Virus record (IMG/VR): IMGVR_UViG_3300021560_000023
Location: 1 to 51,194 of that record
Reading direction: 5' to 3' (one strand)
DNA length: 51,194 nt
Source: a virus
Taxonomy: Duplodnaviria; Caudoviricetes
This document shows positions 3,085 to 33,634 of the stretch, one piece after another. The translations under genes were made by a program, and so were the position numbers. The notes under the pieces are model-generated. The model was not told the DNA's origin. It worked only from the letters and a program-made list of their open reading frames with translations, and searched no databases. Numbering within the stretch: the first letter of the stretch is position 1; each line of letters opens with the position of its first letter.

Positions 3085-3939
3085 CTAGCGCACCCACCCT
3101 GCTGTCGGGTCAGTCAGCCATTCTCGCGGGTCCACCTCATCGAATGCCCCGCGGTCCACCCGCTCGCGGATCGTACAGCCCCGGTCAAAGTCCGCCTGGA
3201 ACGGGCACCGGCCGTGCGCGTAGCAGACAGGGCGGAACAGGTTGGACTCCGCGATGAACCGGAACTGCCACTCAGTCGAGCGGTCCGGCGGCTCATACGC
3301 CGCGAGAGCAGACACGATCTGGGAGCCGACCAGCCGCCACTCAAACTGGGCCTGTGTACACAGCCGGTTCCCCAGGTGGTCCACGAGGTTGCGGAGGTTG
3401 GTCTTGTAGTTCAGCCGGGTGAGCGTGTCGTGCGGGAGGAGCCCGCGAGCCTCCTCCGCGGGGACGCCGTTGGCGATCAGCGACCGGTACGCCTCCCACG
3501 TGTTCTTGATGTGCGCGTTCCAGACCCGCCTCGCCTGCTTGTTCGCTCCCACGAGCGGACCCGGGCGAGCCGCGATGTCCTCCTTGACCGCGAACCGCAT
3601 TGACTCCTGAGCGTACACCGCCGTCCGCTGGCGGACCATCTGGTGGGTGAACGCACGTGTGACGTTCTCCACCATAAAGTGGAGGTCCACCGCCTCCAGG
3701 GGAGCCTTGAGGTGCGTCGCATTAGCTTGGTCCCACGCCCAACGCCGCTCCTCGTCCGTTAGCTCCATCAGGGACCGGATCACCCGACCCTGGTACATGA
3801 AGGCGAATGCCGCTATGGACCCCAGCGGGTCCGGCGTGGCGGAGAGCAGGGTCACCGTTGGCATCCCGTGTCCCACGACCGGCTCCGCCGGATACATCGC
3901 CTTGTCCACGTATGTGCTGACTTCCGAACCTTCCGTCAT
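3085..3939 (-). CDS. thyX: FAD-dependent thymidylate synthase ThyX-like (RQR variant); start 3939 or 3948
   Basis: HLKAPLE, TRAFTHQMVRQRTAVYAQESMRF, AEEARGLLP, RLCTQAQFEW. Confidence 0.85.
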   Translation of the reverse strand: MTEGSEVSTYVDKAMYPAEPVVGHGMPTVTLLSATPDPLGSIAAFAFMYQGRVIRSLMELTDEERRWAWDQANATHLKAPLEAVDLHFMVENVTRAFTHQMVRQRTAVYAQESMRFAVKEDIAARPGPLVGANKQARRVWNAHIKNTWEAYRSLIANGVPAEEARGLLPHDTLTRLNYKTNLRNLVDHLGNRLCTQAQFEWRLVGSQIVSALAAYEPPDRSTEWQFRFIAESNLFRPVCYAHGRCPFQADFDRGCTIRERVDRGAFDEVDPREWLTDPTAGWVR

Positions 3940-4249
3940 CTCTCTCACTCCTGTGCTGCGCCAGGTGACGCTCGATGGTGTCCAAGGTAGCTTCTGCCAT
4001 CAGTGCCCGCTCCCGCCAGTAGAGTGCGTCATGCGACTCCGTGGGATCGTTGAGCAACCAGCTGAGCAGGAGGACCGTGGCAGAGCCGATCCGTCCCGCC
4101 TCCCATCTATAGAACGTTGACCGCGACACTCCCGCCTGCTCCGCCGCCTCCTTTGGGTCGAGGTCCCGGGCCAGCCTCGCCTCGCGGACGAGTCGCCCGA
4201 TGAACCGCTTCTGGTCACTGCTCGCCTCTGCCCACTCGTACGGTCTCAT
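3722..4249 (-). CDS. XRE-family HTH regulator
   Basis: IGRLVREARLARDLDPKEAAEQAGVSRSTFYRWEAG; ATGA overlap with dnaE stop; 3' tail overlaps thyX. Confidence 0.75.
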   Translation of the reverse strand: MRPYEWAEASSDQKRFIGRLVREARLARDLDPKEAAEQAGVSRSTFYRWEAGRIGSATVLLLSWLLNDPTESHDALYWRERALMAEATLDTIERHLAQHRSERDDGRFGSQHIRGQGDVSGGAGRGTRDANGDPALRHAGPAGVHSGIRLHVPGSGDPVPDGANGRGAALGVGPS

Positions 4250-7200
4250 GGAGTGATCACCCACATCCGCCGGACGTTGAGCTTGCGTACAGCCGACCTC
4301 GCGGGTTTGGACGCCTCGACCAGGAGGAGGTCGGAGCCCGTGTTGAACTCCATGATGTGGTCCCGGTACATCGGGAACCGCCAGCGGTCCACCGTGATCA
4401 GCAGCTGGTCGGTGTCGTCCTCGCCCGTCAACAGCGCCCACTCCCTGAGATGGGCGTCCTTCACCTGCGCCGGGTCTAGCTCGACGCCTCTGGCCCGGTT
4501 CTGTTCAAAGATGTCCCGGATGTTGAGCTTGAGGAACGTCCCCAGCCAGACGCACTTCACTGCTCGACCCACCAGGCTCTCGTCCGCGAGGTCCACGGCC
4601 GTATGAGTCGGCTCCGGGAGCCCGTGGCCCTCCTTCAACCACTCCCTCGTGTTGGCAATGTTCCGGTCGAGCAGGAACGCGCCAAACGGGTCCTCGTCCT
4701 CCAGCCATGCCTTGATCTTCTCCGCCGTCTTGGGGCCAAACCCCTTCAGCTCAACGATCTGGTCCCACGAGGTCGGTTGTCGGTCCCTCGCCCACTGAGC
4801 GACCACCGCCGCCGTCTTGGGTCCGATCCCATTGATGGCCCGGAACCCTGCCCTGATCCCGCCGTGTCGCCCGACCGGGGACCAGCCCTCCTCGCTCTTG
4901 GCCAGCGAGGGACGCCGGACCTTGATCTGGTGCTTGTCCGCGTCCCGGAGGAGGTTGCGTGTCCGCTCCGGGTCGCTCGCCGCCTCTGTGAGGCTCGCCG
5001 CGTAGAACACGTTGGTGTGATACTGCTTGAACCACTGGGTGTAGTAGCTCAGCAGTGCGTACCCGGCGCAGTGGGCCGCGTTGAAGGCGTACGCACCGCT
5101 GGTGACCATGTTCCCCCAGATGCGGTCCGCGAGAACCCGTGGCATCACCCGCTCCGCTCCAGCCAGGAACTCCTCCCGCCTCGCCTGGAACAGCTGCTCG
5201 CCCTTCTTGAGGGCGATGATCTTGCGTATCTCCGCGACACCGGCCGGAGGGAACCCGCCGATGTCCCGGGCCACGCTGAGTATCTGCTCCTGGTACACCA
5301 TCTGAAACTGGGTCGGAGCCGTGATGGCATCGTACGCCGGGTGGACCTTCTCCGGAGCCCGGAGCCCCGCCTTGATCTCCGCGTACTCGCGGGCGGCTCC
5401 GTTGTGGAGCGGTCCCGGGCGACAGAGGGCGATACAGTCCATCAACTCGCTGAACCGCTCCGGCTGGATGCCCGCCGTGACGTACCGGGTCGCCCGCCCC
5501 TCAAACTGGAAGATGCCCGTGAGGTCGCCCGCCCTGAACGCCTCGTACACCCGCGGGTCCCCTAGCTCCAGCCCGTACAGGTCGTGGGTCGTCATCCCGA
5601 CCCGCTTACAGCAGTCCCACAGCATTGACATCGTGTTGAGCCCCAGGAAGTCCATCTTGACGAGCCCCTGTCGCTCCGCGTCCGGCTTGTCGAGGGCGAC
5701 CACCTGAACGATCTGGCCGGAGCCCTTGGGGACCTCCCGCTCAGCGACCGTGGTCACCGATGTGATGGGTTCATTGCTCAACACCAACCCAGCCGCGTGG
5801 ACTCCGAACCCCTTGATGTTGCCCTCCAGCCAGCCGCCCTTGGCGAGGTCCGGGTTGCGGTCCCAGATGGCTCTCGCCTGTGGGAACTGTTCGATGGTGT
5901 CCTCAATGGTGCTGCTCGCCCGGAGGTCCCCGCTCGACCGCTCAATGAGGAACTTCTTCAACTCCTCGACCTCCCACTTGGGGATGCGGAACACCCGGGC
6001 GATGTCGTCCAAGGAGTTGCGCCCCTTGAACTGGATGTAGGTCCCGATGTTGTTGACGCAGCCGGGTCCCATCAGGTCCTCATAGAACCGCCGGAGCAGC
6101 GGGCGAGCCTCGCTGGGGAAGTCGAGGTCAATGTCCGGCAGGTCCTCGCGGGTCACGTCGATGAACCGGTCAAAGGACAGGAGCCCCTCAAACTCCCGGC
6201 GGAGCGGGTTGACCTCCGTTATCCCCAGCAGCCACGCCGCAATCGACGCAGCAGCCGAACCACGAGCCGGACCGACAGGAATGCCAAGAGACTTGACGTG
6301 GCGCACACCAGCAGCGACCAACAGGAAGTAGTCCACAAAGTCCTTCCCCTCGATGAGGGACATCTCGTGGCGCAGCTGGGCGCTGTACGGCTCCCGCTCC
6401 TCCGGGTCCAGCCGGTGTAGCCCGCGTTCACGCCAGCCCTGCTTGAGCAGGGCACGCCAATGCCCTGTCGCTGAGCCCTCCCCGGGCGGGAGCGGGTACC
6501 GGACCATTGGCAGCCGCGGGAGGGTAGCTGTACACTCCTGGGCAATCTCCTCTGTTGACACGATGGCTTCAATGGCCTCCTCCTTACTCAGCCCGGTCGC
6601 CCTCAGACGCCGGTACACGGTGGCATCGTTCGGTGGTGGGCAGAGTGGAGCCGTGTAGCCCCACTCCCTCGCCTGCTCCTCCAGGGTGCGCTTCTCGCCC
6701 GGCCGGAGGTTGTGGAGAATCTTCTGAACCTCCTGCTCCTCCAACATCGTGTAGTGGCAGTCGAGGGTGGCCACGAGCTGTGAGCCGATAGCCCGGGCGA
6801 GCCGCCCCGCGAGAGCGTTGAACCGCCGCGTGACCTCCAACTCCGGGAACGCCTGAACCTCGATCAGGTAGTTGTCCCCGAACGTCTCGCGGAACAGCTG
6901 GGCTATCCGGAGCCCTCTCGCGTACGAGGCACGCTCCTGGGGTATCCCCTTCCCGCCGACCGTCGCACACGCGAGGAGGCTGCCCTGACAGCCGGACAAC
7001 ACAAGGAGCCCGGCTCGCCGCCGGACGAGTTCGTCCCAGGTGACCGTGGGCTCATAGTAGAAGTGTTGCCACGAGCCGGTCACCAGGGCGAGGAGGTTGG
7101 CATAGCCCTGCTGGTCCTTGGCGATCAGGGTGAGGTGGTGCTTGCGCTGCGTCTCCGTGTCCGGCCGTCTCCAGAACCGGCCGCTGGGCATGTAGACCTC

Positions 7201-7509
7201 GCAGCCGAACAGAGGCTTGATCCCCGCCTTCTGAGCAGCCAACTCAAATTTGACGTGGGAGTCGATGTTTCCATGCTCCGTGAGGGCGAGGCTCCCCATC
7301 CCAATCTCACCCGCCCGGCGGACGTGAGCCTCAGGCATCTGGTACCCGTCGAGGTACGAGAGCGTGGTGTGGTGGTGAAGGCTCACGAACCGCATGGGCT
7401 TGAGGCTCCCGTTCGCGGAGCCCCGCCGCCGGATCGGGAGCCCGCCGCCGCCGTGCGAGCCGCCCACCTTGACCTCGTGGGCCGCAAAGTCACCTAGCCT
7501 TGCCGGCAT
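4246..7509 (-). CDS. dnaE: DNA polymerase III alpha subunit
   Basis: PHP domain (LHHHT..SYLDG, LTEHG), RGSAAAS, LPDIDLDF, GVHAAG, KMDFLGL, YAFNAAH. Confidence 0.95.
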   Translation of the reverse strand: MPARLGDFAAHEVKVGGSHGGGGLPIRRRGSANGSLKPMRFVSLHHHTTLSYLDGYQMPEAHVRRAGEIGMGSLALTEHGNIDSHVKFELAAQKAGIKPLFGCEVYMPSGRFWRRPDTETQRKHHLTLIAKDQQGYANLLALVTGSWQHFYYEPTVTWDELVRRRAGLLVLSGCQGSLLACATVGGKGIPQERASYARGLRIAQLFRETFGDNYLIEVQAFPELEVTRRFNALAGRLARAIGSQLVATLDCHYTMLEEQEVQKILHNLRPGEKRTLEEQAREWGYTAPLCPPPNDATVYRRLRATGLSKEEAIEAIVSTEEIAQECTATLPRLPMVRYPLPPGEGSATGHWRALLKQGWRERGLHRLDPEEREPYSAQLRHEMSLIEGKDFVDYFLLVAAGVRHVKSLGIPVGPARGSAAASIAAWLLGITEVNPLRREFEGLLSFDRFIDVTREDLPDIDLDFPSEARPLLRRFYEDLMGPGCVNNIGTYIQFKGRNSLDDIARVFRIPKWEVEELKKFLIERSSGDLRASSTIEDTIEQFPQARAIWDRNPDLAKGGWLEGNIKGFGVHAAGLVLSNEPITSVTTVAEREVPKGSGQIVQVVALDKPDAERQGLVKMDFLGLNTMSMLWDCCKRVGMTTHDLYGLELGDPRVYEAFRAGDLTGIFQFEGRATRYVTAGIQPERFSELMDCIALCRPGPLHNGAAREYAEIKAGLRAPEKVHPAYDAITAPTQFQMVYQEQILSVARDIGGFPPAGVAEIRKIIALKKGEQLFQARREEFLAGAERVMPRVLADRIWGNMVTSGAYAFNAAHCAGYALLSYYTQWFKQYHTNVFYAASLTEAASDPERTRNLLRDADKHQIKVRRPSLAKSEEGWSPVGRHGGIRAGFRAINGIGPKTAAVVAQWARDRQPTSWDQIVELKGFGPKTAEKIKAWLEDEDPFGAFLLDRNIANTREWLKEGHGLPEPTHTAVDLADESLVGRAVKCVWLGTFLKLNIRDIFEQNRARGVELDPAQVKDAHLREWALLTGEDDTDQLLITVDRWRFPMYRDHIMEFNTGSDLLLVEASKPARSAVRKLNVRRMWVITP

Positions 7510-7681
7510 CGCCCTCCTCCTTCTCGACCATCGTGGCCCCCATGAACCGGCCGTGGATCCAGCCCTGTTGGCCCTCGATCAGGACGGCCGTGGTCGGCTG
7601 CTCGCCCACGACCGCCTGTAGCTCGACGATGTCCCGGTCAGAGATCATCACGTCAATCAGCAGCCGAACCCTCATGATCAT
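7490..7681 (-). CDS. Hypothetical protein
   Basis: Translationally coupled small ORF within the operon. Confidence 0.6.
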   Translation of the reverse strand: MIMRVRLLIDVMISDRDIVELQAVVGEQPTTAVLIEGQQGWIHGRFMGATMVEKEEGDAGKAR

Positions 7682-8010
7682 TGCCACCACTCTCCGTCTC
7701 GTGTCGTCTCGCCCTCGATGGCTCTCACCAGGAACCCGCAGAAGTTGATGAGGTCGAGGGCATCGTCAGCCGCGGTCCCTGCTCCGCCGGTCCCCGGCCA
7801 CATCGTGTCCCACAGCCGGTCGGATCGCTCGCGGATGCGCACCACTACGCCTCGCCAGCCCGACCTCCGCCAGTTGTCGCAGTACCGCTCGTTGCGCTCC
7901 GCGTACAGGACGAGAGCCCGGAGCAGGACACGCGCCTGGCGGTGTACATCCTCTCGCCCGGTATATCCCAGCGTCCGGACCGTCCGGCGGACTTGGCTCT
8001 CAGTCAGCAT
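7678..8010 (-). CDS. Nucleotide-modification-associated domain protein (DUF1599/Nmad1-like)
   Basis: LYAERNERYCDNW..GWRGVVVRIRERSDRL...DDALDLINF. Confidence 0.65.
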   Translation of the reverse strand: MLTESQVRRTVRTLGYTGREDVHRQARVLLRALVLYAERNERYCDNWRRSGWRGVVVRIRERSDRLWDTMWPGTGGAGTAADDALDLINFCGFLVRAIEGETTRDGEWWQ

Positions 8011-8332
8011 ACGGGCGGACCTCCACCCGGAGCCCGTACGCCTCAAGCCAGATGCGGCCGGAGCCGGAGTCCCGTGTACACCACTCCCGCCGCCGGAGCC
8101 CGTCCCAGACGTGCCGCGGAACTGTGGCGCAGAAGTGCCCTAGCCCAAGCGGGACCGTATCCCGGCCCACCAGGTGTAGGGTAGTGTGGTTGACATCCTT
8201 GAACCACCGTAGCGGCCAGGGAGCGGGCTCCCCGGGCTCGACCTCCCGGAACCCCAGGATGCGCAACATCTCCTCCAGCCCCTCCTCGTGGAGGTCCGCC
8301 ATGTCAATCTCGTACGTCAGGTGGTGGAACAT
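8000..8332 (-). CDS. VOC/glyoxalase-fold protein
   Basis: FHHLTYEI..LGFREV..WF..LHLV..GHFC..GLRVEV. Confidence 0.6.
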   Translation of the reverse strand: MFHHLTYEIDMADLHEEGLEEMLRILGFREVEPGEPAPWPLRWFKDVNHTTLHLVGRDTVPLGLGHFCATVPRHVWDGLRRREWCTRDSGSGRIWLEAYGLRVEVRPYAD

Positions 8333-8640
8333 CAGAGCCGCTCCATCCACGCCACGGCCAGAGCCGCGATCTGAGCCAACTCCTTCCGGAGCCCCTTGTC
8401 GGAGAAGTCACCCTCATCGACCGCCAGCCCGGTCCGGTTCAACGCTGCTCTCGCGACCTCGCCCATCTCCTCCATCAGGCACGCCGCCCGCTCGATGTCG
8501 GTCATCCCGTCATCGGAGAGGGTGTACTTGAAACGTCCGTCCGCCTTCAGAGCCAGCTGGCGCTTGCGCTCCGACCCGACGATGATGAGGACCCGCTCCA
8601 GCTTGGAGCCGACCTCCAGTTCAGGATCGTACAAGCTCAT
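8332..8640 (-). CDS. MazG-like NTP pyrophosphohydrolase
   Basis: LMEEMGEVARA...LRKELAQIAALAVAW. Confidence 0.8.
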   Translation of the reverse strand: MSLYDPELEVGSKLERVLIIVGSERKRQLALKADGRFKYTLSDDGMTDIERAACLMEEMGEVARAALNRTGLAVDEGDFSDKGLRKELAQIAALAVAWMERL

Positions 8641-9317
8641 CGTGTCCCTCCATACAGGTTGATCCCGGAGCCCGCTGTCCACTTGGCGGCCGGAGCAGTG
8701 AGCAGCCAGGACACAACCTCCGCGACCTCGACCGGCTGAAGGTGATCGAACATCCTCAGGTCCTTCCGCTGATAGACCTCCGCCTCACCCCTGCTCAGGT
8801 CCTTGGTCTCCATCAGCTGCTCGACCACCCGGGCTCCCATGGGCGTATCTGGAACGTGGTACGGGTGGACGATGTGGAAGAAGAAGATGGGCGTCAACTC
8901 CCAAGCTAGCTCGCGGACCGCCGCCGCGAGTCCCGCCTTGGCCGCGCAGTACGCCGCCCCGTTGGTCAGTGGGTGATCGTGGGCATACGAGCCCACTAGG
9001 ACAGCCGCTCCGCCCTTGGAGCCACGATCCCTGACGTATCCCCTGGCTGCCATGAGCGGGAGGAGCAGGGAGCCCCGGATCACCTCATGGATGTCGTCCT
9101 CGCTCGCCTGGTCAAAGGGAACCATCCGCGTGTGCCCCAGGGTACAGACCATCGCATCGTACTGCCCCAGGTCCGTCGAGGGGATGCGGTACACCCCGTC
9201 AGTATCCAGGCAGTCTGAGCTGTCCACGGTCCATCCTTCCCGGGTCAACACGCCGCGGATCGCTGACCCGATGTTCCACGGCTCCTTCATCGCTGCTCCC
9301 AGCACCATTGCCTTCAT
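8637..9317 (-). CDS. SDR-family oxidoreductase
   Basis: VLGA..NIGSAI, VLVGS, YCAAK (YxxxK), GSGINLYGG. Confidence 0.85.
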   Translation of the reverse strand: MKAMVLGAAMKEPWNIGSAIRGVLTREGWTVDSSDCLDTDGVYRIPSTDLGQYDAMVCTLGHTRMVPFDQASEDDIHEVIRGSLLLPLMAARGYVRDRGSKGGAAVLVGSYAHDHPLTNGAAYCAAKAGLAAAVRELAWELTPIFFFHIVHPYHVPDTPMGARVVEQLMETKDLSRGEAEVYQRKDLRMFDHLQPVEVAEVVSWLLTAPAAKWTAGSGINLYGGTR

Positions 9318-9954
9318 CGTAGCTCCTCATCAGTTCCATGATTGCGCTCGCCACCCCGGTGAGGGAGGCGAACTCCCATCCACTCCAACTCGCTGCCATG
9401 TTCCACTCCGACCGGCGGAGGATCGGTTGGCCCAAGTGTTCGATGCGCGCCTGGTCCAGGATCCAGGTCAGGTCATCGAGGACCGCCACGACCCGCCGCG
9501 GGTCTATCCGCCGGGCGAGTTCGCCCAGCTTGTTCTCCCCGAACAGCAACCCATCGAACTCGATGTTGTTGCGCCTCGCCCACTCCACGGAGTCCGGGTC
9601 AATCCGGTCATACCGGTTGTGAGGGCGGGTCGTGGTCAACCAGACTTCCGCTCCCGCCTCCCGGAGCAGCCGGGTGAGGTCGCTCGCTCCCGGGTAGGTG
9701 CCCATCGTCCGCTTCAGACCTCCCTGCCTGTACGCCAGCTTGATCGACCGGAACGTTGAGAGGTCGATGCCGAACGTCTGACACATCCAGTCCCGGAACC
9801 GCTCCCCGCCCTCGTACTCGACCCGCTTGGGCTGGTAGCCTAGCCAGCTGCTCGCGAACTCGATGAAGTGGGGGTGATACGGAGCCAGCGTCCCGTCGAT
9901 GTCGATGGCGACCACGGGCGGGACCGGCTCTGAGCAGCGTGAGCACAGCATCAT
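9199..9954 (-). CDS. HAD-family phosphatase (5'-nucleotidase-like)
   Basis: AIDIDGTL, LTTTRP, K, VLDD; N-terminal CxxC. Confidence 0.85.
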   Translation of the reverse strand: MMLCSRCSEPVPPVVAIDIDGTLAPYHPHFIEFASSWLGYQPKRVEYEGGERFRDWMCQTFGIDLSTFRSIKLAYRQGGLKRTMGTYPGASDLTRLLREAGAEVWLTTTRPHNRYDRIDPDSVEWARRNNIEFDGLLFGENKLGELARRIDPRRVVAVLDDLTWILDQARIEHLGQPILRRSEWNMAASWSGWEFASLTGVASAIMELMRSYDEGNGAGSSDEGAVEHRVSDPRRVDPGRMDRGQLRLPGY

Positions 9955-10712
9955 GTAACAGCCTCCGCCGCCTCCCTCGCCCGTTCAAACGCCTCGTGTA
10001 GCAGGATGCCTGGCTTCCACATTCCGTACCTTCCGTTGCGCAGTATCTCTGGGTGGCAGTCGCAGTCCGTCTGGACCACCTTGAACCCCTTGCGGACCTT
10101 CCCATTCACGGCTCCCGGCGGCTGGGCGTACTCCGTCACCCGGTGGCCCCAGAGGTCCTGAGCCCTGTACCAGGCGTCCTGCTCCCGGCCGTTGTACAAC
10201 ACGGAGTTCGTCTCGACCTCCGGCGGAGCCCCATCGACCAGGTAGATGTCCGTCTGTTCAAAGAAGTGGTCGCCATCGCACAGCGCCCACGCCGGAGCCG
10301 TGTTGATCACCAGCCGGTAGTCCTTCACCAGCCGCCGGGCTCCGTGGGCGGTCACCTTCCGCTTCTGGACCCGCTCCCCGTACAGCGCCCACAGCGCATC
10401 GTACGCCGGGGCGAGGTACCAGCCGCCCTGCTGCCCCACCTTGTACCGATCCCAGGACGTGGGCCGGACGTACCCGTACACCTTCTTGGAGTACGTCCGG
10501 CCGTCACCGACCTTCTTGAACAGCATGAGGGCATCAGGCAGGCGGTGAGTGATGTCCGGGATCGCCCCTTGAAGGGACACCCCCAGAGCCATGGGCGACT
10601 GCTCCGGCCGGTCGGAGTAGATGTCCACCCGGAGTCCCGCTCGCGTACACGCGTGCGCGGAGAGGAGTCCGGCCGGTCCACATCCGATCACTGCCACGTC
10701 CGCGTCAACCAT
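9951..10712 (-). CDS. FAD/NAD-binding oxidoreductase (UDP-galactopyranose mutase-like fold)
   Basis: VAVIGCGPAGL, VINTAP, C-terminal GRYGMW; RBS GGAGG. Confidence 0.8.
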   Translation of the reverse strand: MVDADVAVIGCGPAGLLSAHACTRAGLRVDIYSDRPEQSPMALGVSLQGAIPDITHRLPDALMLFKKVGDGRTYSKKVYGYVRPTSWDRYKVGQQGGWYLAPAYDALWALYGERVQKRKVTAHGARRLVKDYRLVINTAPAWALCDGDHFFEQTDIYLVDGAPPEVETNSVLYNGREQDAWYRAQDLWGHRVTEYAQPPGAVNGKVRKGFKVVQTDCDCHPEILRNGRYGMWKPGILLHEAFERAREAAEAVT

Positions 10713-10989
10713 AGTCCTCCGCCTGCTCGACATAGCCCAGGAACCTGTGTAGCTCATTCCGGGCGAGCCGGAGAGCCCTCGCGTACCGCCGCGGCTCGAC
10801 CTCCGCGTCACCGCTCCGGAACTCCTGGAGCAGTGCCTGGAACCGCGGCCCAGCACTGAACACCCACTCGACCTCCTCCTTGTTCGTGGCCGGGTCCTCG
10901 ATGACCTCCATGGTCATGTGACGCATCCCCTTCATCATCAGGTACGCCGCCAGCGGGAGGTCGCCTGTTCTGAACACTTCATCGTTCAT
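10705..10989 (-). CDS. DUF5659-like small protein
   Basis: FRTGDLPLAAYL motif. Confidence 0.6.
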   Translation of the reverse strand: MNDEVFRTGDLPLAAYLMMKGMRHMTMEVIEDPATNKEEVEWVFSAGPRFQALLQEFRSGDAEVEPRRYARALRLARNELHRFLGYVEQAEDYG

Positions 10990-11057
10990 TCTCGCATCCC
11001 TTTGGGGCGAGGGTGTCCCGTAGCCCACGTGGAGCCCCGGGACACCCGCTCGCGTGG

Positions 11058-11864
11058 CTAGAACGGCTCCCCGCTGTCATCCTTGCGCAGCCGCTGGACG
11101 AGGACCGCCCGGGCTCCGTTGGTCGGCAGTTCCCGCTCCTTGAGTTCCGCCTTCAACTCCGCGACCGACAGGTCATCGTAGTTGTCGCCGCCCTCCTCGT
11201 CCTGCTCCTCGTCCTCGCCCTCCTCCTCGTCATCGTCCTCCTCGTCCTCGTCCTCCTCCTCGTCCTCCGGCATCGCCTCGACGATGGCCGTCCGGATGTC
11301 GTCGTCAGACATGGACTTCTTGACCGTGACGTCCAACTCCTCGTCCTTGATGAACTTCTTCAGGCCGGAGCGGTCGAGGCTGTCGAGGTCCACGGCGTCC
11401 TCGTCCTCCTCCTCGTCCGCCTCTGCCTCCTCCGCCTCCTCCGGCTCCGCCTCGTCCGCCTGCTCGACCTTCATGAGCTTGGCGATCCGCGGCCGGTAGT
11501 CCCCATCCTGGTCGGTGTCGGACTTGAGCCGCCCCAACACCTTCATCCCCTCGACCTTGTCCGTGTCGAATGAGCCCTTGAGCGGGAGCCCTAGCGCGGT
11601 GAAGAACTCCTTGGTGCGCGCCTGGACGAATGGGGAGTCATGCTCCAGCAGCGGGTAGTGCCAAATGGGCGCGTACTCCTCCTTGAGCCGCTCGCCCTGA
11701 GCGTTGTGGGTGGGGCGGAACCGGACCTCAAGCATGGCGTTGCCATTGCTGGACGGCTTGGGACCGTCGATGTCCTCGACCGTCAGGATGTACGTCCCGA
11801 CCGGAGCGTGGGCATCGCTCTGCGCATCTGCGAACTGCGACACATCGTACTTGACCTTGGGCAT
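11058..11864 (-). CDS. DUF669-like ssDNA-binding protein with acidic linkers and C-terminal SAP domain
   Basis: PVGTY..SSNGNAML; YDDLSVAELKAELKERELPTNGARAVLVQRL; ends in PF; follows the AAA_24 ATPase. Confidence 0.75.
   Translation of the reverse strand: MPKVKYDVSQFADAQSDAHAPVGTYILTVEDIDGPKPSSNGNAMLEVRFRPTHNAQGERLKEEYAPIWHYPLLEHDSPFVQARTKEFFTALGLPLKGSFDTDKVEGMKVLGRLKSDTDQDGDYRPRIAKLMKVEQADEAEPEEAEEAEADEEEDEDAVDLDSLDRSGLKKFIKDEELDVTVKKSMSDDDIRTAIVEAMPEDEEEDEDEEDDDEEEGEDEEQDEEGGDNYDDLSVAELKAELKERELPTNGARAVLVQRLRKDDSGEPF

Positions 11865-28725: not shown

Positions 28726-33634
<4,909 letters not shown>

What the first reader, a model, noticed from the sequence alone, without database searches (positions are those of the whole stretch)
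7678..10712. Candidate uncharacterised DNA-modification operon coupled to the phage DnaE
Six tightly overlapping genes: FAD oxidoreductase (mutase-like), HAD phosphatase, SDR, MazG-like, VOC-like and Nmad1/DUF1599-like. They are followed by dnaE and the variant thyX. Known: MazG and HAD enzymes deplete canonical nucleotides in phages that substitute bases. The redox/isomerase-type trio suggests synthesis of a modified base or sugar moiety. I recognise no glycosyltransferase, PurZ, DpdA or methylase, so it does not match the pathways I know. The product cannot be predicted from sequence.
Basis: partly seen in the sequence, partly recalled or inferred. Interest (0 to 1): 0.7.

Follow-up and report, generated by a model that had tools for sequence, protein, structure and literature searches.

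The report
Conserved phage flavoprotein–ThyX–DnaE nucleotide cassette
Just upstream of this uncultured actinophage's DNA polymerase is a real, widely conserved but biochemically untested set of nucleotide-handling enzymes, built around a virus-only flavoprotein and an atypical ThyX; it may make or manage a thymidine-type DNA precursor, but nothing yet shows that the DNA is modified.

Summary
At 7678-10712 (minus strand), six co-directional genes with overlapping stop and start codons run into a small ORF, dnaE and a ThyX-like gene.

Gene identities, strongest first:
- SDR: strong.
- VOC: fold confirmed.
- Flavoprotein: GR2 fold, with UDP-galactopyranose mutase the top but tied match.
- HAD: catalytic motifs intact, weakly deoxyribonucleotidase-like.
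- MazG-like and DUF1599-like: leads only.

The six genes are not a fixed unit. Of 52 dereplicated relatives that have DnaE in the locus:
- 47 keep the DUF1599-like gene;
- 42 keep HAD;
- 21 keep SDR;
- 5 keep VOC.

Every record I checked also carries a ThyX-like gene. In 0 of 37 of these is the canonical RHR motif present, although the four dUMP-binding residues are invariant. The flavoprotein family is large and essentially virus-only.

Cultured actinophages (Mycobacterium cluster D, Gordonia DV and others) already carry the same cassette. [quoted passage not shown]

My best reading is a mononucleotide-level pyrimidine pathway that feeds the phage DnaE. Whether its product is dTMP or a modified base is open; I put a modified base at about 0.3. 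No DNA-level transferase, kinase or glycosyltransferase was found.

The parts
9951..10712 (-). FADox: a 253-aa virus-only flavoprotein (phrog_8720) with a two-domain GR2 fold
   Evidence: ATG at 10712 with GGAGG upstream. PHROG 8720, 5.8e-37, function unknown. Pfam matches only the N-terminal GxGxxG region. AF2 model has pLDDT 96.5. Best solved folds are UDP-galactopyranose mutases at Z 13.8-14.9, then FAD monooxygenases at Z 13.6. The family has 1032 representatives at E<=1e-10.
9199..9954 (-). HAD-superfamily phosphatase, weakly like a 5'(3')-deoxyribonucleotidase
   Evidence: Pfam Hydrolase 17.5 bits and NT5C 16.2 bits, both below cut-off. PHROG 415, 1.2e-08. Invariant D18, D20, T108/T109, K142 and D161 in 22 sequences. 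The family profile's best PDB match is 2jao, a 5'(3')-deoxyribonucleotidase, at E 0.021. Homologues in 83 cultured phages are annotated as phosphatase or 5' nucleotidase.
8637..9317 (-). Classical short-chain dehydrogenase/reductase (FabG-like ketoreductase)
   Evidence: Pfam adh_short_C2 1.2e-11 and adh_short 1.5e-10, both above cut-off. Invariant S110, Y123 and K127 in 17 sequences. Family profile against the PDB: MabA/FabG 1uzl at 1.9e-27. 34% identity over 120 aa to Prager gp66 'FabG-like reductase', E 2.6e-11.
8332..8640 (-). Small MazG-like all-alpha protein (putative NTP pyrophosphohydrolase); lineage-specific insert
   Evidence: ATG at 8640 with GGAGGG upstream. PHROG 2831, 1.2e-08, function unknown. 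No Pfam hit. Only PDB hit is YpjD (2gta) at E 1.1. ESM Atlas: feature score 0.90 to a MazG cluster and TM 0.51-0.67 to MazG-like clusters. tblastn matches in 4 of 82 related loci, all at other positions.
8000..8332 (-). VOC (glyoxalase / bleomycin / fosfomycin-resistance) fold protein, 110 aa
   Evidence: No Pfam or PDB sequence hit. AF2 model has pLDDT 90.5. The 20 best VIA rows are all VOC proteins, Z 8.7-10.7 over residues 1-110. Foldseek top hits are FosB/FosA/FosX, 1e-5 to 1e-4. Invariant H4, H53, H66 and E104 in 7 sequences. Fused to the DUF1599-like domain in L035.
7678..8010 (-). DUF1599 (Nmad1)-like / MazG-like helical protein; core member of the cassette
   Evidence: The window protein itself has no Pfam hit. 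5 of 31 family members match Pfam DUF1599, best 8.1e-05. Family profile's best PDB match is 2p06 at E 0.04. The gene lies between FADox and DnaE in 69 of 75 loci. The family HMM hits Prager gp65, Haunter gp54, Xenia2 gp71 and Yara gp48 at 4e-21 to 2e-19.
7490..7681 (-). Small ORF (about 63 aa) between the DUF1599-like gene and dnaE, no known family
   Evidence: GC3 0.87. Overlapping start and stop codons on both sides. tblastn matches only in the two closest relatives, L004 and L005. No Pfam or PHROG hit.
4246..7509 (-). DnaE-type DNA polymerase III alpha subunit
   Evidence: Pfam DNA_pol3_alpha 2e-52, finger domain 5.5e-33, PHP 5.2e-32. Strong RBS upstream of the ATG at 7509.
3085..3948 (-). 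ThyX-like flavin-dependent thymidylate synthase homologue with an altered motif (RQR-x7-S-x-R)
   Evidence: Pfam Thy1 105.2 bits, above cut-off. TIGR02170 81.9 bits, below its 87.9 cut-off. 0 of 37 relatives have RHR. R106, R108, S116 and R118 are invariant in 32 sequences.

Best explanation
This is the local version of a conserved phage cassette that works on free pyrimidine deoxynucleotides and feeds the phage's own DnaE polymerase. All of the steps below are inferred; none is shown.
1. The DUF1599-like protein, and here also the extra MazG-like protein, hydrolyse a dNTP to the monophosphate. The substrate is most plausibly dUTP or dCTP.
2. The atypical ThyX-like enzyme keeps the four dUMP-binding residues and performs flavin/folate one-carbon chemistry at C5 of dUMP.
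3. The virus-only flavoprotein always accompanies this ThyX type. It acts either as its redox partner or as a second flavin enzyme on the same uridine-type nucleotide.
4. The HAD enzyme dephosphorylates a competing or surplus dNMP.
5. The SDR and the VOC protein are lineage-specific additions, for tailoring or for cofactor recycling.

The default product is thymidylate or a close analogue. The evidence does not decide between these.
For: Operon structure.
- Stop and start codons overlap from FADox through to dnaE.

Co-conservation.
- 75 of the 85 loci with FADox also hold DnaE. Among those 75, the DUF1599-like gene lies between FADox and DnaE in 69, HAD in 55 and SDR in 22.
- After dereplication at 60% FADox identity, 52 of 54 clusters have DnaE. 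Of those 52, 47 have the DUF1599-like gene, 42 HAD, 21 SDR and 35 a ThyX-like gene within the 8-kb flank.
- All 10 records I checked that lacked ThyX in the flank hold one elsewhere.
- A minimal form, FADox - DUF1599-like - DnaE, exists (L020-L024, L027, L036). In L002, L017, L034, L041 and L081 the ThyX-like gene lies next to, or one small gene from, FADox.
- Genus counts in cultured phages mirror each other. FADox: Gordonia 46, Microbacterium 36, Mycobacterium 32. ThyX-like: 46, 36, 28.
- The pham table of PMC11385102 (passage read) gives oxidoreductase, phosphatase, FabG-like and ThyX-like nearly the same cluster range.

Pyrimidine theme.
- Relatives place dCTP deaminase-like genes (7.9e-36) and UDG-family genes (3.8e-26) in the same slot.
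- The HAD family's best solved relative is a 5'(3')-deoxyribonucleotidase, at E 0.021, which is weak.
- R106, R108, S116 and R118 of the ThyX-like protein are invariant. Their spacing matches R78, R80, S88 and R90, the dUMP ligands of T. maritima ThyX (PMC3498832, passage read).
- The flavoprotein's top solved folds are UDP-sugar mutases, which bind a uridine nucleotide.

Catalytic competence.
- The catalytic residues of HAD and SDR are invariant.

Fusion.
- A natural VOC-DUF1599 fusion ORF in L035 links those two proteins.
Against: - No activity has been measured for any member, and I found no functional study.
- The pyrophosphatase role rests on weak matches. The window's own protein has no DUF1599 hit, and the MazG-like calls are leads only.
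- The deoxyribonucleotidase call is below Pfam cut-off and only E 0.021 against the PDB.
- The flavoprotein's fold matches form a plateau: mutases at Z 13.8-14.9 against monooxygenases at Z 13.6. That gives no substrate.
- SDR, VOC, methyltransferase, UDG and dCTP deaminase come and go between lineages, so no single fixed pathway exists.
- No thymidylate or dNMP kinase was found in this complete genome. Host kinases would therefore have to accept the product.
- ThyX is not always adjacent, so its coupling to FADox is a genome-level co-occurrence.
Confidence: 0.5

Rival explanations
1. The cassette makes a non-canonical pyrimidine: a C5-modified dUMP/dUTP, or a base tailored further by the flavoprotein, SDR, VOC or methyltransferase. 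The phage DnaE then incorporates it into virion DNA. The nucleotidase and pyrophosphatases exclude the canonical nucleotide.
For: - The flavoprotein family is large (1032 representatives at E<=1e-10) yet essentially virus-only. A scan of one genome for each of 185,579 species found only two full-length relatives and one cut by a contig end. The two full-length ones sit on phage-like contigs that carry the same cassette.
- All 37 associated ThyX-like proteins have lost the canonical RHR: 26 read RQR, 5 RSR and 6 RTR.
- A thymidylate-synthase homologue together with an NTP pyrophosphatase and a dNMP nucleotidase, and in some loci a dCTP deaminase, is the classical enzyme set of base-substituting phages (my recollection of SPO1, PBS2 and T4).
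- Variable 'tailoring' genes occupy the slot: SAM methyltransferase, VOC, SDR and an Asn-synthase-like PP-loop enzyme.
- Pfam names DUF1599 'Nucleotide modification associated domain 1'.
- There are precedents for flavin enzymes in pyrimidine modification. PaMx11 gp47 is a flavin-dependent lyase acting on DNA (PMC8989533, passages). Flavin-binding ThyA homologues make 5-hydroxy-dCMP (PMC13326640, abstract and outline).
Against: - No 5-hmdU DNA kinase, aGPT-Pplase, glycosyltransferase, DpdA or PurZ turned up in Pfam or PHROG scans of the window's ORFs.
- No phage dNMP kinase was found.
- UDG and dCTP deaminase in relatives fit ordinary dTTP supply equally well.
- The dUMP ligands of ThyX are intact.
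- More than 100 cultured phages carry the cassette, and my literature searches found no report of modified DNA in them. This is absence of evidence only.
Confidence: 0.3
2. The flavoprotein and the SDR serve only to regenerate cofactors for a canonical but divergent ThyX (reduced flavin, reduced folate or pterin). The cassette then simply boosts dTMP supply.
For: - The flavoprotein co-occurs strictly with this ThyX type.
- The central residue of the ThyX RHR motif is altered in all 37.
- Among the SDR's weaker NCBIfam matches is pteridine reductase, PRK09135, at 5.4e-08.
Against: - The SDR's best matches are generic FabG/MabA ketoreductases, not pteridine reductases, and it is absent from 31 of 52 lineages.
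- A GR2-fold enzyme of this type is not a known flavin reductase (my recollection).
- This reading leaves the nucleotidase, the VOC protein and the methyltransferase unexplained.
Confidence: 0.12
3. The genes are unrelated auxiliary 'moron' genes that happen to collect in a permissive slot upstream of dnaE. There is no common pathway.
For: - Accessory content varies widely between lineages.
- PHROG places the FabG-like family among 'moron, auxiliary metabolic gene' families.
- In relatives the MazG-like gene sits at other positions.
Against: - The core is kept in order across contigs of 50-68% GC and across six host genera.
- Translational coupling runs through to dnaE.
- A VOC-DUF1599 fusion exists.
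Confidence: 0.08

Closest known systems
Gene block in cultured actinobacteriophages: 'oxidoreductase - 5' nucleotidase/phosphatase - (methyltransferase) - hypothetical - FabG-like reductase - DnaE-like Pol III alpha - ThyX-like'. Seen in Mycobacterium cluster D (e.g. Prager), Gordonia DV (e.g. Xenia2), Streptomyces (Yara) and Microbacterium Krampusvirus (Haunter).
   Same: - Same order and the same replication-module setting: helicase, Cas4 exonuclease, Sak4/RecA-like ATPase, then the block.
- Homologous flavoprotein (E 2e-23 to Prager gp62), HAD (1e-45), SDR (3e-11) and ThyX-like (4e-80). The DUF1599-like family HMM hits the 'hypothetical' Prager gp65 at 4e-21.
   Different: - The window has no methyltransferase. 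Between SDR and the DUF1599-like gene it carries a MazG-like and a VOC-fold gene instead.
- Protein identities are only 27-47%, and there is no DNA-level match to any cultured phage.
- The block's function is unknown in the cultured phages as well.
Nucleotide-pool enzyme sets of base-substituting phages, such as the SPO1/SP8 hmU system and the T4 hmC system (recalled, not fetched here)
   Same: A thymidylate-synthase-type enzyme combined with a dNTP pyrophosphatase and a dNMP nucleotidase, and in some relatives a dCTP deaminase.
   Different: - Those systems use ThyA-family hydroxymethylases and a phage dNMP kinase. Here the enzyme is ThyX-family and no kinase was found.
- No modified base has been shown here.
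Thymidine hypermodification pathways (M6, ViI, PaMx11; PMC8989533)
   Same: A flavin enzyme of the same broad GR2/DAAO superfamily takes part in pyrimidine tailoring there: PaMx11 gp47, a flavin-dependent lyase.
   Different: - The defining 5-hmdU DNA kinase and aGPT-Pplase are not found in the window.
- tblastn with the flavoprotein found no Pseudomonas phage record. Any resemblance is at fold level only.
UDP-galactopyranose mutase (GLF family)
   Same: It is the best solved fold for the flavoprotein: Z 14.9, rmsd 3.6 A, 247 residues aligned for 3ukk. The first 28 rows of the second-look list are all mutases. It binds a uridine nucleotide and uses flavin N5 as a covalent catalyst (recalled).
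   Different: - The protein is 253 aa, against 360-516 aa for the mutases, so a large part of the mutase has no counterpart.
- 10-18% identity.
- No Pfam GLF hit.
- Monooxygenases score within about 1 Z unit.

Membership tests
Short-chain dehydrogenase/reductase (SDR) | Pfam adh_short / adh_short_C2 score above the gathering threshold | tested here: met
   45.1 bits against a cut-off of 27, and 41.4 against 26.6.
Short-chain dehydrogenase/reductase (SDR) | Catalytic Ser-Tyr-x3-Lys and an N-terminal glycine-rich cofactor motif | tested here: met
   S110, Y123, K127, G7 and G17 are invariant in 17 sequences.
HAD-superfamily phosphatase | Motifs I (DxDGT), II (Thr/Ser), III (Lys) and IV (Asp) | tested here: met
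   D18, D20, G21, T108/T109, K142 and D161 are invariant in 22 sequences. Assigning these residues to the four motifs is my own reading.
HAD-superfamily phosphatase | Pfam Hydrolase or NT5C score above the gathering threshold | tested here: not met
   17.5 bits against 26.4, and 16.2 against 24.8.
5'(3')-deoxyribonucleotidase (NT5C type) | Specific sequence relationship to solved dNT enzymes | tested here: inconclusive
   The family profile's best PDB match is 2jao, but only at E 0.021.
VOC (glyoxalase / bleomycin / fosfomycin-resistance) superfamily | Paired beta-alpha-beta-beta-beta fold | tested here: met
   Model pLDDT 90.5. The 20 best VIA rows are all VOC proteins, Z 8.7-10.7, with 97-106 residues aligned. 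Foldseek gives FosB/FosA/FosX at 1e-5 to 1e-4.
VOC (glyoxalase / bleomycin / fosfomycin-resistance) superfamily | Pfam Glyoxalase-family sequence match | tested here: not met
   No Pfam hit at E<=0.01 and no PDB sequence hit at E<=10. ESM Atlas gives feature-score leads of 0.93 only.
VOC (glyoxalase / bleomycin / fosfomycin-resistance) superfamily | Metal-ligand His/Glu residues | tested here: inconclusive
   H4, H53, H66 and E104 are invariant in 7 sequences. I could not check their positions in the metal site because no model coordinates were available.
MazG-type all-alpha NTP pyrophosphohydrolase (8332-8640) | Pfam MazG / PRA-PH match or a clear solved relative | tested here: inconclusive
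   No Pfam hit. The only PDB hit is YpjD at E 1.1. ESM Atlas gives 0.90 to a cluster in which 29% of members carry MazG, and TM 0.51-0.67.
DUF1599 / Nmad1 (7678-8010) | Pfam PF07659 match | tested here: inconclusive
   The window protein has no match. 5 of 31 family members match, best 8.1e-05.
ThyX (flavin-dependent thymidylate synthase) | Pfam Thy1 domain | tested here: met
   105.2 bits against a cut-off of 24.8.
ThyX (flavin-dependent thymidylate synthase) | NCBIfam equivalog TIGR02170 cut-off | tested here: not met
   81.9 bits against 87.9.
ThyX (flavin-dependent thymidylate synthase) | ThyX motif RHR-x7-S (motif recalled) | tested here: not met
   The window reads RQR-x7-S. 0 of 37 relatives have RHR.
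ThyX (flavin-dependent thymidylate synthase) | dUMP-binding Arg, Arg, Ser, Arg (T. maritima R78, R80, S88, R90; PMC3498832) | tested here: met
   R106, R108, S116 and R118 are invariant in 32 sequences, with identical spacing.
UDP-galactopyranose mutase (GLF) | Pfam GLF domain and the full three-domain size (360-516 aa) | tested here: not met
   No GLF hit. The protein is 253 aa against 360-516 aa for the matched mutases.
Thymidine hypermodification system (5-HMUDK + aGPT-Pplase) | A P-loop 5-hmdU DNA kinase and an aGPT-Pplase transferase in the genome | tested here: not met
   Neither appears in the Pfam or PHROG scans of the window's ORFs. Several small ORFs remain without any family.
Actinophage oxidoreductase-nucleotidase-FabG-like-DnaE-ThyX-like block | Homologous flavoprotein, HAD, DUF1599-like, SDR, DnaE and ThyX-like genes in the same order | tested here: met
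Actinophage oxidoreductase-nucleotidase-FabG-like-DnaE-ThyX-like block | SAM methyltransferase between HAD and SDR (cluster D / DV form) | tested here: not met
   No methyltransferase in the window.

The most novel reading that the evidence does not exclude
The virus-only flavoprotein, the RHR-less ThyX and the DUF1599-like protein together make a previously undescribed C5-modified deoxyuridine (or related pyrimidine) nucleotide. The phage DnaE incorporates it, and SDR, VOC or methyltransferase genes diversify it between lineages. If so, a whole set of readily cultured actinophages carries an unrecognised DNA base.
Probability: 0.3. Interest if true: 0.85.

Novelty: new variant of a known kind. 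Interest (0 to 1): 0.6.

Why it matters
The cassette is widespread. It occurs in 126 cultured phage records across six actinobacterial host genera, and the flavoprotein family has over a thousand 50%-identity clusters in metagenomes. It sits next to the replicative polymerase, and no activity has been assigned to it.

It pairs a flavoprotein with no cellular counterpart with a ThyX subtype whose signature motif is changed.

Because easily grown carriers exist on the laboratory strain M. smegmatis mc2 155 and on Gordonia and Microbacterium hosts, the question 'canonical thymidylate or a new base?' can be answered directly by nucleoside mass spectrometry and simple enzyme assays.

Either answer would be useful. 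One gives a new two-component form of flavin-dependent thymidylate synthesis. The other gives a new DNA modification with its own polymerase.

Tried and rejected
- DNA-level search of 7400-11100 against cultured phages: no match.
- tblastn with the window's SDR against cultured phages: no match at 1e-3. A direct BLASTP against the annotated FabG-like proteins of Prager and Xenia2 later found 33-34% identity over the C-terminal half. The first miss was therefore a sensitivity limit, not absence.
- Complex prediction of the flavoprotein with the ThyX-like protein: no verdict. The score was 0.00 in two runs and the controls were not run. It counts neither for nor against binding.
- Sequence search of the flavoprotein against the PDB and NCBIfam: only the roughly 40-residue dinucleotide-binding motif matches.
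- Sequence search of the VOC-like and MazG-like proteins against the PDB: nothing, and one hit at E 1.1.
I repeated it with a 12-sequence alignment. That scan depends on one N-terminal peptide pattern, so distant cellular relatives could be missed.
- Profile search of 1.84 billion representatives: only the best 150 are listed, and all are full-length family members. No bridge to a named family could be read from it.
- The roughly 200-aa C-terminal extensions of long DUF1599-like proteins: no Pfam family, and no similarity to the window's VOC, MazG-like, SDR or HAD proteins.
- Promoter and terminator scan: not above shuffles.
- TrmFO, MnmC1, Thi4 and flavin reductases do not appear among the 50 rows shown of either VIA list for the flavoprotein. 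This does not exclude them.
- Literature: four searches found no functional study of the block. Ulmer et al. 2008 on the extended ThyX motif is not held, so the role of the motif's histidine could not be checked.
- Earlier-findings look-ups by place and by sequence returned nothing.

Full report
**What is there**

The window is a complete 51,194-bp virus record with direct terminal repeats. It is about 66% GC, and all credible genes lie on the minus strand. It is an uncultured tailed phage. Pfam and PHROG scans find a terminase, a Mu-type portal, a capsid protein, a tail-collar/collagen fibre protein and an endolysin.

The replication module matches that of actinobacteriophages: an SNF2 helicase, a Cas4-type exonuclease, a Sak4/AAA_24 ATPase, a SAP-domain protein and a DUF5659 protein. 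After these comes the block in question, followed by dnaE, a ThyX-like gene and a primase/helicase.

**Checking the observation**

Six ORFs with GC3 of 0.80-0.85 fill 7678-10712 exactly. With start codons chosen by upstream GGAGG-like sites, each gene overlaps its neighbour:

| Gene | Coordinates | Overlap with the previous gene |
|---|---|---|
| FADox | 9951-10712 | 8 nt (with the DUF5659 gene) |
| HAD | 9199-9954 | 4 nt |
| SDR | 8637-9317 | 119 nt |
| MazG-like | 8332-8640 | 4 nt |
| VOC-like | 8000-8332 | 1 nt |
| DUF1599-like | 7678-8010 | 11 nt |
| dnaE | 4246-7509 | 20 nt |

A consensus scan found no excess of promoter-like or terminator-like sites in the region. The block therefore looks like one translationally coupled unit that includes dnaE.

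**Identities of the six proteins**

- *SDR.* It is a secure classical SDR. Pfam scores are above cut-off. Ser-Tyr-Lys is invariant in 17 relatives. A family profile matches 496 PDB sequences at E<=1e-8, with mycobacterial MabA/FabG first. None of this gives a substrate.
- *HAD.* Pfam scores are below cut-off. Even so, the aspartates, threonine, lysine and aspartate of the four HAD motifs are invariant in 22 relatives. The family profile's best solved relative is a 5'(3')-deoxyribonucleotidase at a weak E of 0.021. Cultured-phage homologues are annotated as phosphatase, 5' nucleotidase or deoxyribonucleotidase.
- *VOC-like.* There is no sequence hit. An AlphaFold model from seven relatives has pLDDT 90.5. 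Its 20 best structural matches are all glyoxalase, bleomycin-resistance or fosfomycin-resistance proteins, at Z 8.7-10.7 over the whole chain. Foldseek agrees. Three histidines and a glutamate are invariant.
- *MazG-like.* Support is limited to leads. The only PDB sequence hit is the MazG-type YpjD at E 1.1. The ESM Atlas gives a feature score of 0.90 and TM scores of 0.51-0.67 to MazG-like clusters.
- *DUF1599-like.* The window protein has no Pfam hit of its own. In an alignment of 31 relatives, 5 members match Pfam DUF1599, 'Nucleotide modification associated domain 1', with a best E of 8.1e-05. The family profile's best PDB match is AF_0060 (2p06) at E 0.04.
- *Flavoprotein (FADox).* It matches Pfam, NCBIfam and the PDB only over the N-terminal dinucleotide-binding motif. 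A model from 49 sequences has pLDDT 96.5 and shows a compact two-domain GR2 flavoprotein. UDP-galactopyranose mutases rank first, at Z 13.8-14.9, and fill the first 28 rows of the second-look list. FAD monooxygenases follow at Z 13.6, with protoporphyrinogen and amino-acid oxidases at 12-13. At 253 aa the protein also lacks a large part of the 360-516-aa mutases.

**Is the block conserved?**

tblastn with the flavoprotein finds 126 cultured phage records, all annotated 'oxidoreductase': Gordonia 46, Microbacterium 36, Mycobacterium 32, Streptomyces 9, Arthrobacter 2 and Nocardia 1.

Annotated regions show the same order in four cultured phages.
- Mycobacterium phage Prager: oxidoreductase, 5' nucleotidase, methyltransferase, hypothetical, FabG-like reductase, DnaE, hypothetical, ThyX-like.
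- Gordonia phage Xenia2: similar.
- Streptomyces phage Yara: oxidoreductase, phosphatase, hypothetical, DnaE, with ThyX further on.
- Microbacterium phage Haunter: oxidoreductase, ThyX-like, hypothetical, DnaE.

The 'hypothetical' genes in all four are the DUF1599-like family, with HMM E-values from 4e-21 to 2e-19.

I fetched 80 IMG/VR loci. With the four cultured loci and the window this makes 85 loci holding the flavoprotein. DnaE is in the locus in 75 of them. The table gives HMM counts before and after dereplication at 60% flavoprotein identity.

| Gene | Of 75 loci with DnaE | Of 52 dereplicated clusters with DnaE (54 clusters in all) |
|---|---|---|
| DUF1599-like | 69, all between FADox and DnaE | 47 |
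| HAD | 55, all between | 42 |
| SDR | 25 (22 between) | 21 |
| ThyX-like, within the 8-kb flank | 47 | 35 |
| Methyltransferase | 10 (9 between) | 10 |
| VOC | 7 | 5 |
| UDG-family | 7 | 6 |
| dCTP-deaminase-like | 6 (5 between) | 5 |

All 10 records I checked that lacked ThyX in the flank hold a Thy1-domain gene elsewhere. A minimal form, flavoprotein - DUF1599-like - DnaE, exists in L020-L024, L027 and L036. In L002, L017, L034, L041 and L081 the ThyX-like gene lies next to, or one small gene from, the flavoprotein.

The MazG-like gene has tblastn matches in only 4 of 82 related loci, and there it lies elsewhere in the genome. The window's exact six-gene arrangement is therefore its own. 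The nearest relatives (L004, L005, L006, L007, L025) share the run flavoprotein-HAD-SDR-VOC-DUF1599-like.

**The partner ThyX**

The window's ThyX-like protein passes Pfam Thy1 but falls below the NCBIfam equivalog cut-off. None of the 37 distinct complete ThyX-like proteins from flavoprotein-bearing loci has the canonical RHR. 26 read RQR, 5 RSR and 6 RTR.

R106, R108, S116 and R118 are invariant in 32 sequences. Their spacing matches that of R78, R80, S88 and R90, which hydrogen-bond dUMP in T. maritima ThyX (PMC3498832, passage read). This is a distinct ThyX subtype that very probably still binds dUMP.

Its close relatives in cultured phages follow the flavoprotein's host distribution: Gordonia 46, Microbacterium 36, Mycobacterium 28. 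The pham table of the Xenia2 genome announcement gives oxidoreductase, phosphatase, FabG-like and ThyX-like nearly the same cluster range (AE, BN, D, DG, DV, EF). The DnaE pham is far wider (PMC11385102, passage read).

**How widespread is the flavoprotein?**

A profile search of 1.84 billion representatives gives 1281 hits at E<=1e-3, 1032 at 1e-10 and 625 at 1e-30. The 150 listed are all 242-343 aa.

A scan of one genome for each of 185,579 prokaryotic species returned only two full-length relatives and one cut off by a contig end. The two full-length ones lie on 25-34-kb contigs of about 50% GC. Those contigs carry flavoprotein-HAD-DUF1599-like-(SDR)-DnaE(-ThyX), so they are phage-like contigs inside MAG bins. 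That scan used a single N-terminal peptide pattern, so distant cellular relatives may have been missed. On present evidence the family is virus-only.

**Interpretation**

The variable genes that relatives place in the same slot are a dCTP-deaminase-like gene, a UDG-family gene, a SAM methyltransferase, DUF6378, an Asn-synthase-like PP-loop enzyme and a TSCPD domain. Together with the core, they point to pyrimidine deoxynucleotide chemistry at the mononucleotide level.

My best reading is a pathway that feeds the phage DnaE:
- pyrophosphatase-type proteins produce a dNMP;
- the ThyX subtype does C5 one-carbon chemistry on dUMP;
- the flavoprotein is its obligatory companion, either as redox partner or as a second flavin catalyst on a uridine nucleotide;
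- the HAD enzyme drains a competing dNMP;
- SDR and VOC are lineage-specific additions.

A natural VOC-DUF1599 fusion ORF in L035 ties those two proteins together. Every step is inferred and none has been measured.

**Canonical thymidylate or a new base?**

In favour of a modified base:
- the flavoprotein is virus-only;
- the ThyX motif change is universal in this group;
- the pairing of a nucleotidase with pyrophosphatases is, as I recall it, the classical pattern of base-substituting phages;
- the variable genes look like tailoring enzymes;
- there are precedents for flavin enzymes in pyrimidine modification (PMC8989533, passages; PMC13326640, abstract).

Against it:
- no DNA-level kinase, transferase, glycosyltransferase, DpdA or PurZ was found;
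- no phage dNMP kinase was found;
- UDG and dCTP deaminase fit ordinary dTTP supply;
- I found no report of modified DNA in the many cultured carriers.

I put the modified-base reading at about 0.3.

**Relation to earlier work**

A previous agent of this scan described the same kind of module in another genome and reached a similar verdict (finding e1-6032315). I treat that as agreement, not as independent evidence. The co-occurrence, the motif change and the virus-only status were re-derived here.

**Verdict**

The locus is a new variant (MazG-like and VOC-like genes in place of the methyltransferase) of a gene block that is known and annotated but functionally uncharacterised. It is a good and directly testable lead rather than a demonstrated DNA-modification system.

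Noticed in passing
L035:10376-11182: A single open frame fuses a VOC-like domain to a DUF1599-like domain. In the window the same two domains are adjacent separate genes (8000-8332 and 7678-8010).
   Followed up: partly
window 9199-9317: The HAD gene runs 119 nt into the SDR gene in another frame. Its last 35 or so residues are not conserved in relatives, whose matches end at about residue 186-216. The closest relative, L004, shows a similar 110-nt overlap.
   Followed up: partly
window 9951-10712: The flavoprotein family has an invariant or nearly invariant Cys/His cluster (C145, H149, C217, C219, H220; motif TDCDCHP) plus R183, K211 and R228. These may form a metal or redox site and an anion-binding site. 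I could not place them in 3D.
   Followed up: no
window 3085-3300 (C-terminal part of the ThyX-like gene): The ThyX-like proteins carry a conserved Cys-rich C-terminal extension (consensus CYxxGxCPF...DRGCTIR, with C248 invariant). As I recall, canonical ThyX lacks this. Lengths in relatives range from 287 to 485 aa.
   Followed up: no
L003:8417-9427, L053, L055, L059, L062, L063, L045, L049: Long forms (315-400 aa) of the DUF1599-like protein carry a C-terminal extension of roughly 200 aa. It has no Pfam family and no similarity to the window's proteins.
   Followed up: partly
L066, L068, L076, L077, L080 (between the flavoprotein and DnaE): Some relatives insert a UDG-family glycosylase and a dCTP-deaminase-like gene in the same slot. 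L076 and L077 have a DUF6378 protein where the DUF1599-like gene usually sits.
   Followed up: partly
L086, L087 (genome contigs): Contigs binned into a Saccharibacteria MAG and a 'Scandinavium sp.' MAG, both about 50% GC, carry the full cassette. They are probably phage contigs, so the block extends beyond high-GC actinophages.
   Followed up: partly
window 11058-11864: A very acidic 268-aa protein ending in a SAP DNA-binding domain (Pfam 2.2e-11) lies between the Sak4-like ATPase and the DUF5659 gene. It is conserved in 26 of 82 related loci.
   Followed up: no
window 28726-31659: A 977-aa tail protein has three tail-collar domains, collagen triple-helix repeats and a Gp10-like C-terminal domain.
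   Followed up: no
BFVD hits of the flavoprotein model: After its own family (TM 0.91), the nearest viral models are an uncultured-phage protein of 306 aa (TM 0.69) and a 280-aa protein of Pseudomonas phage PA5 (TM 0.56). I did not check whether the PA5 protein is related to the PaMx11-type flavin lyase.
   Followed up: no
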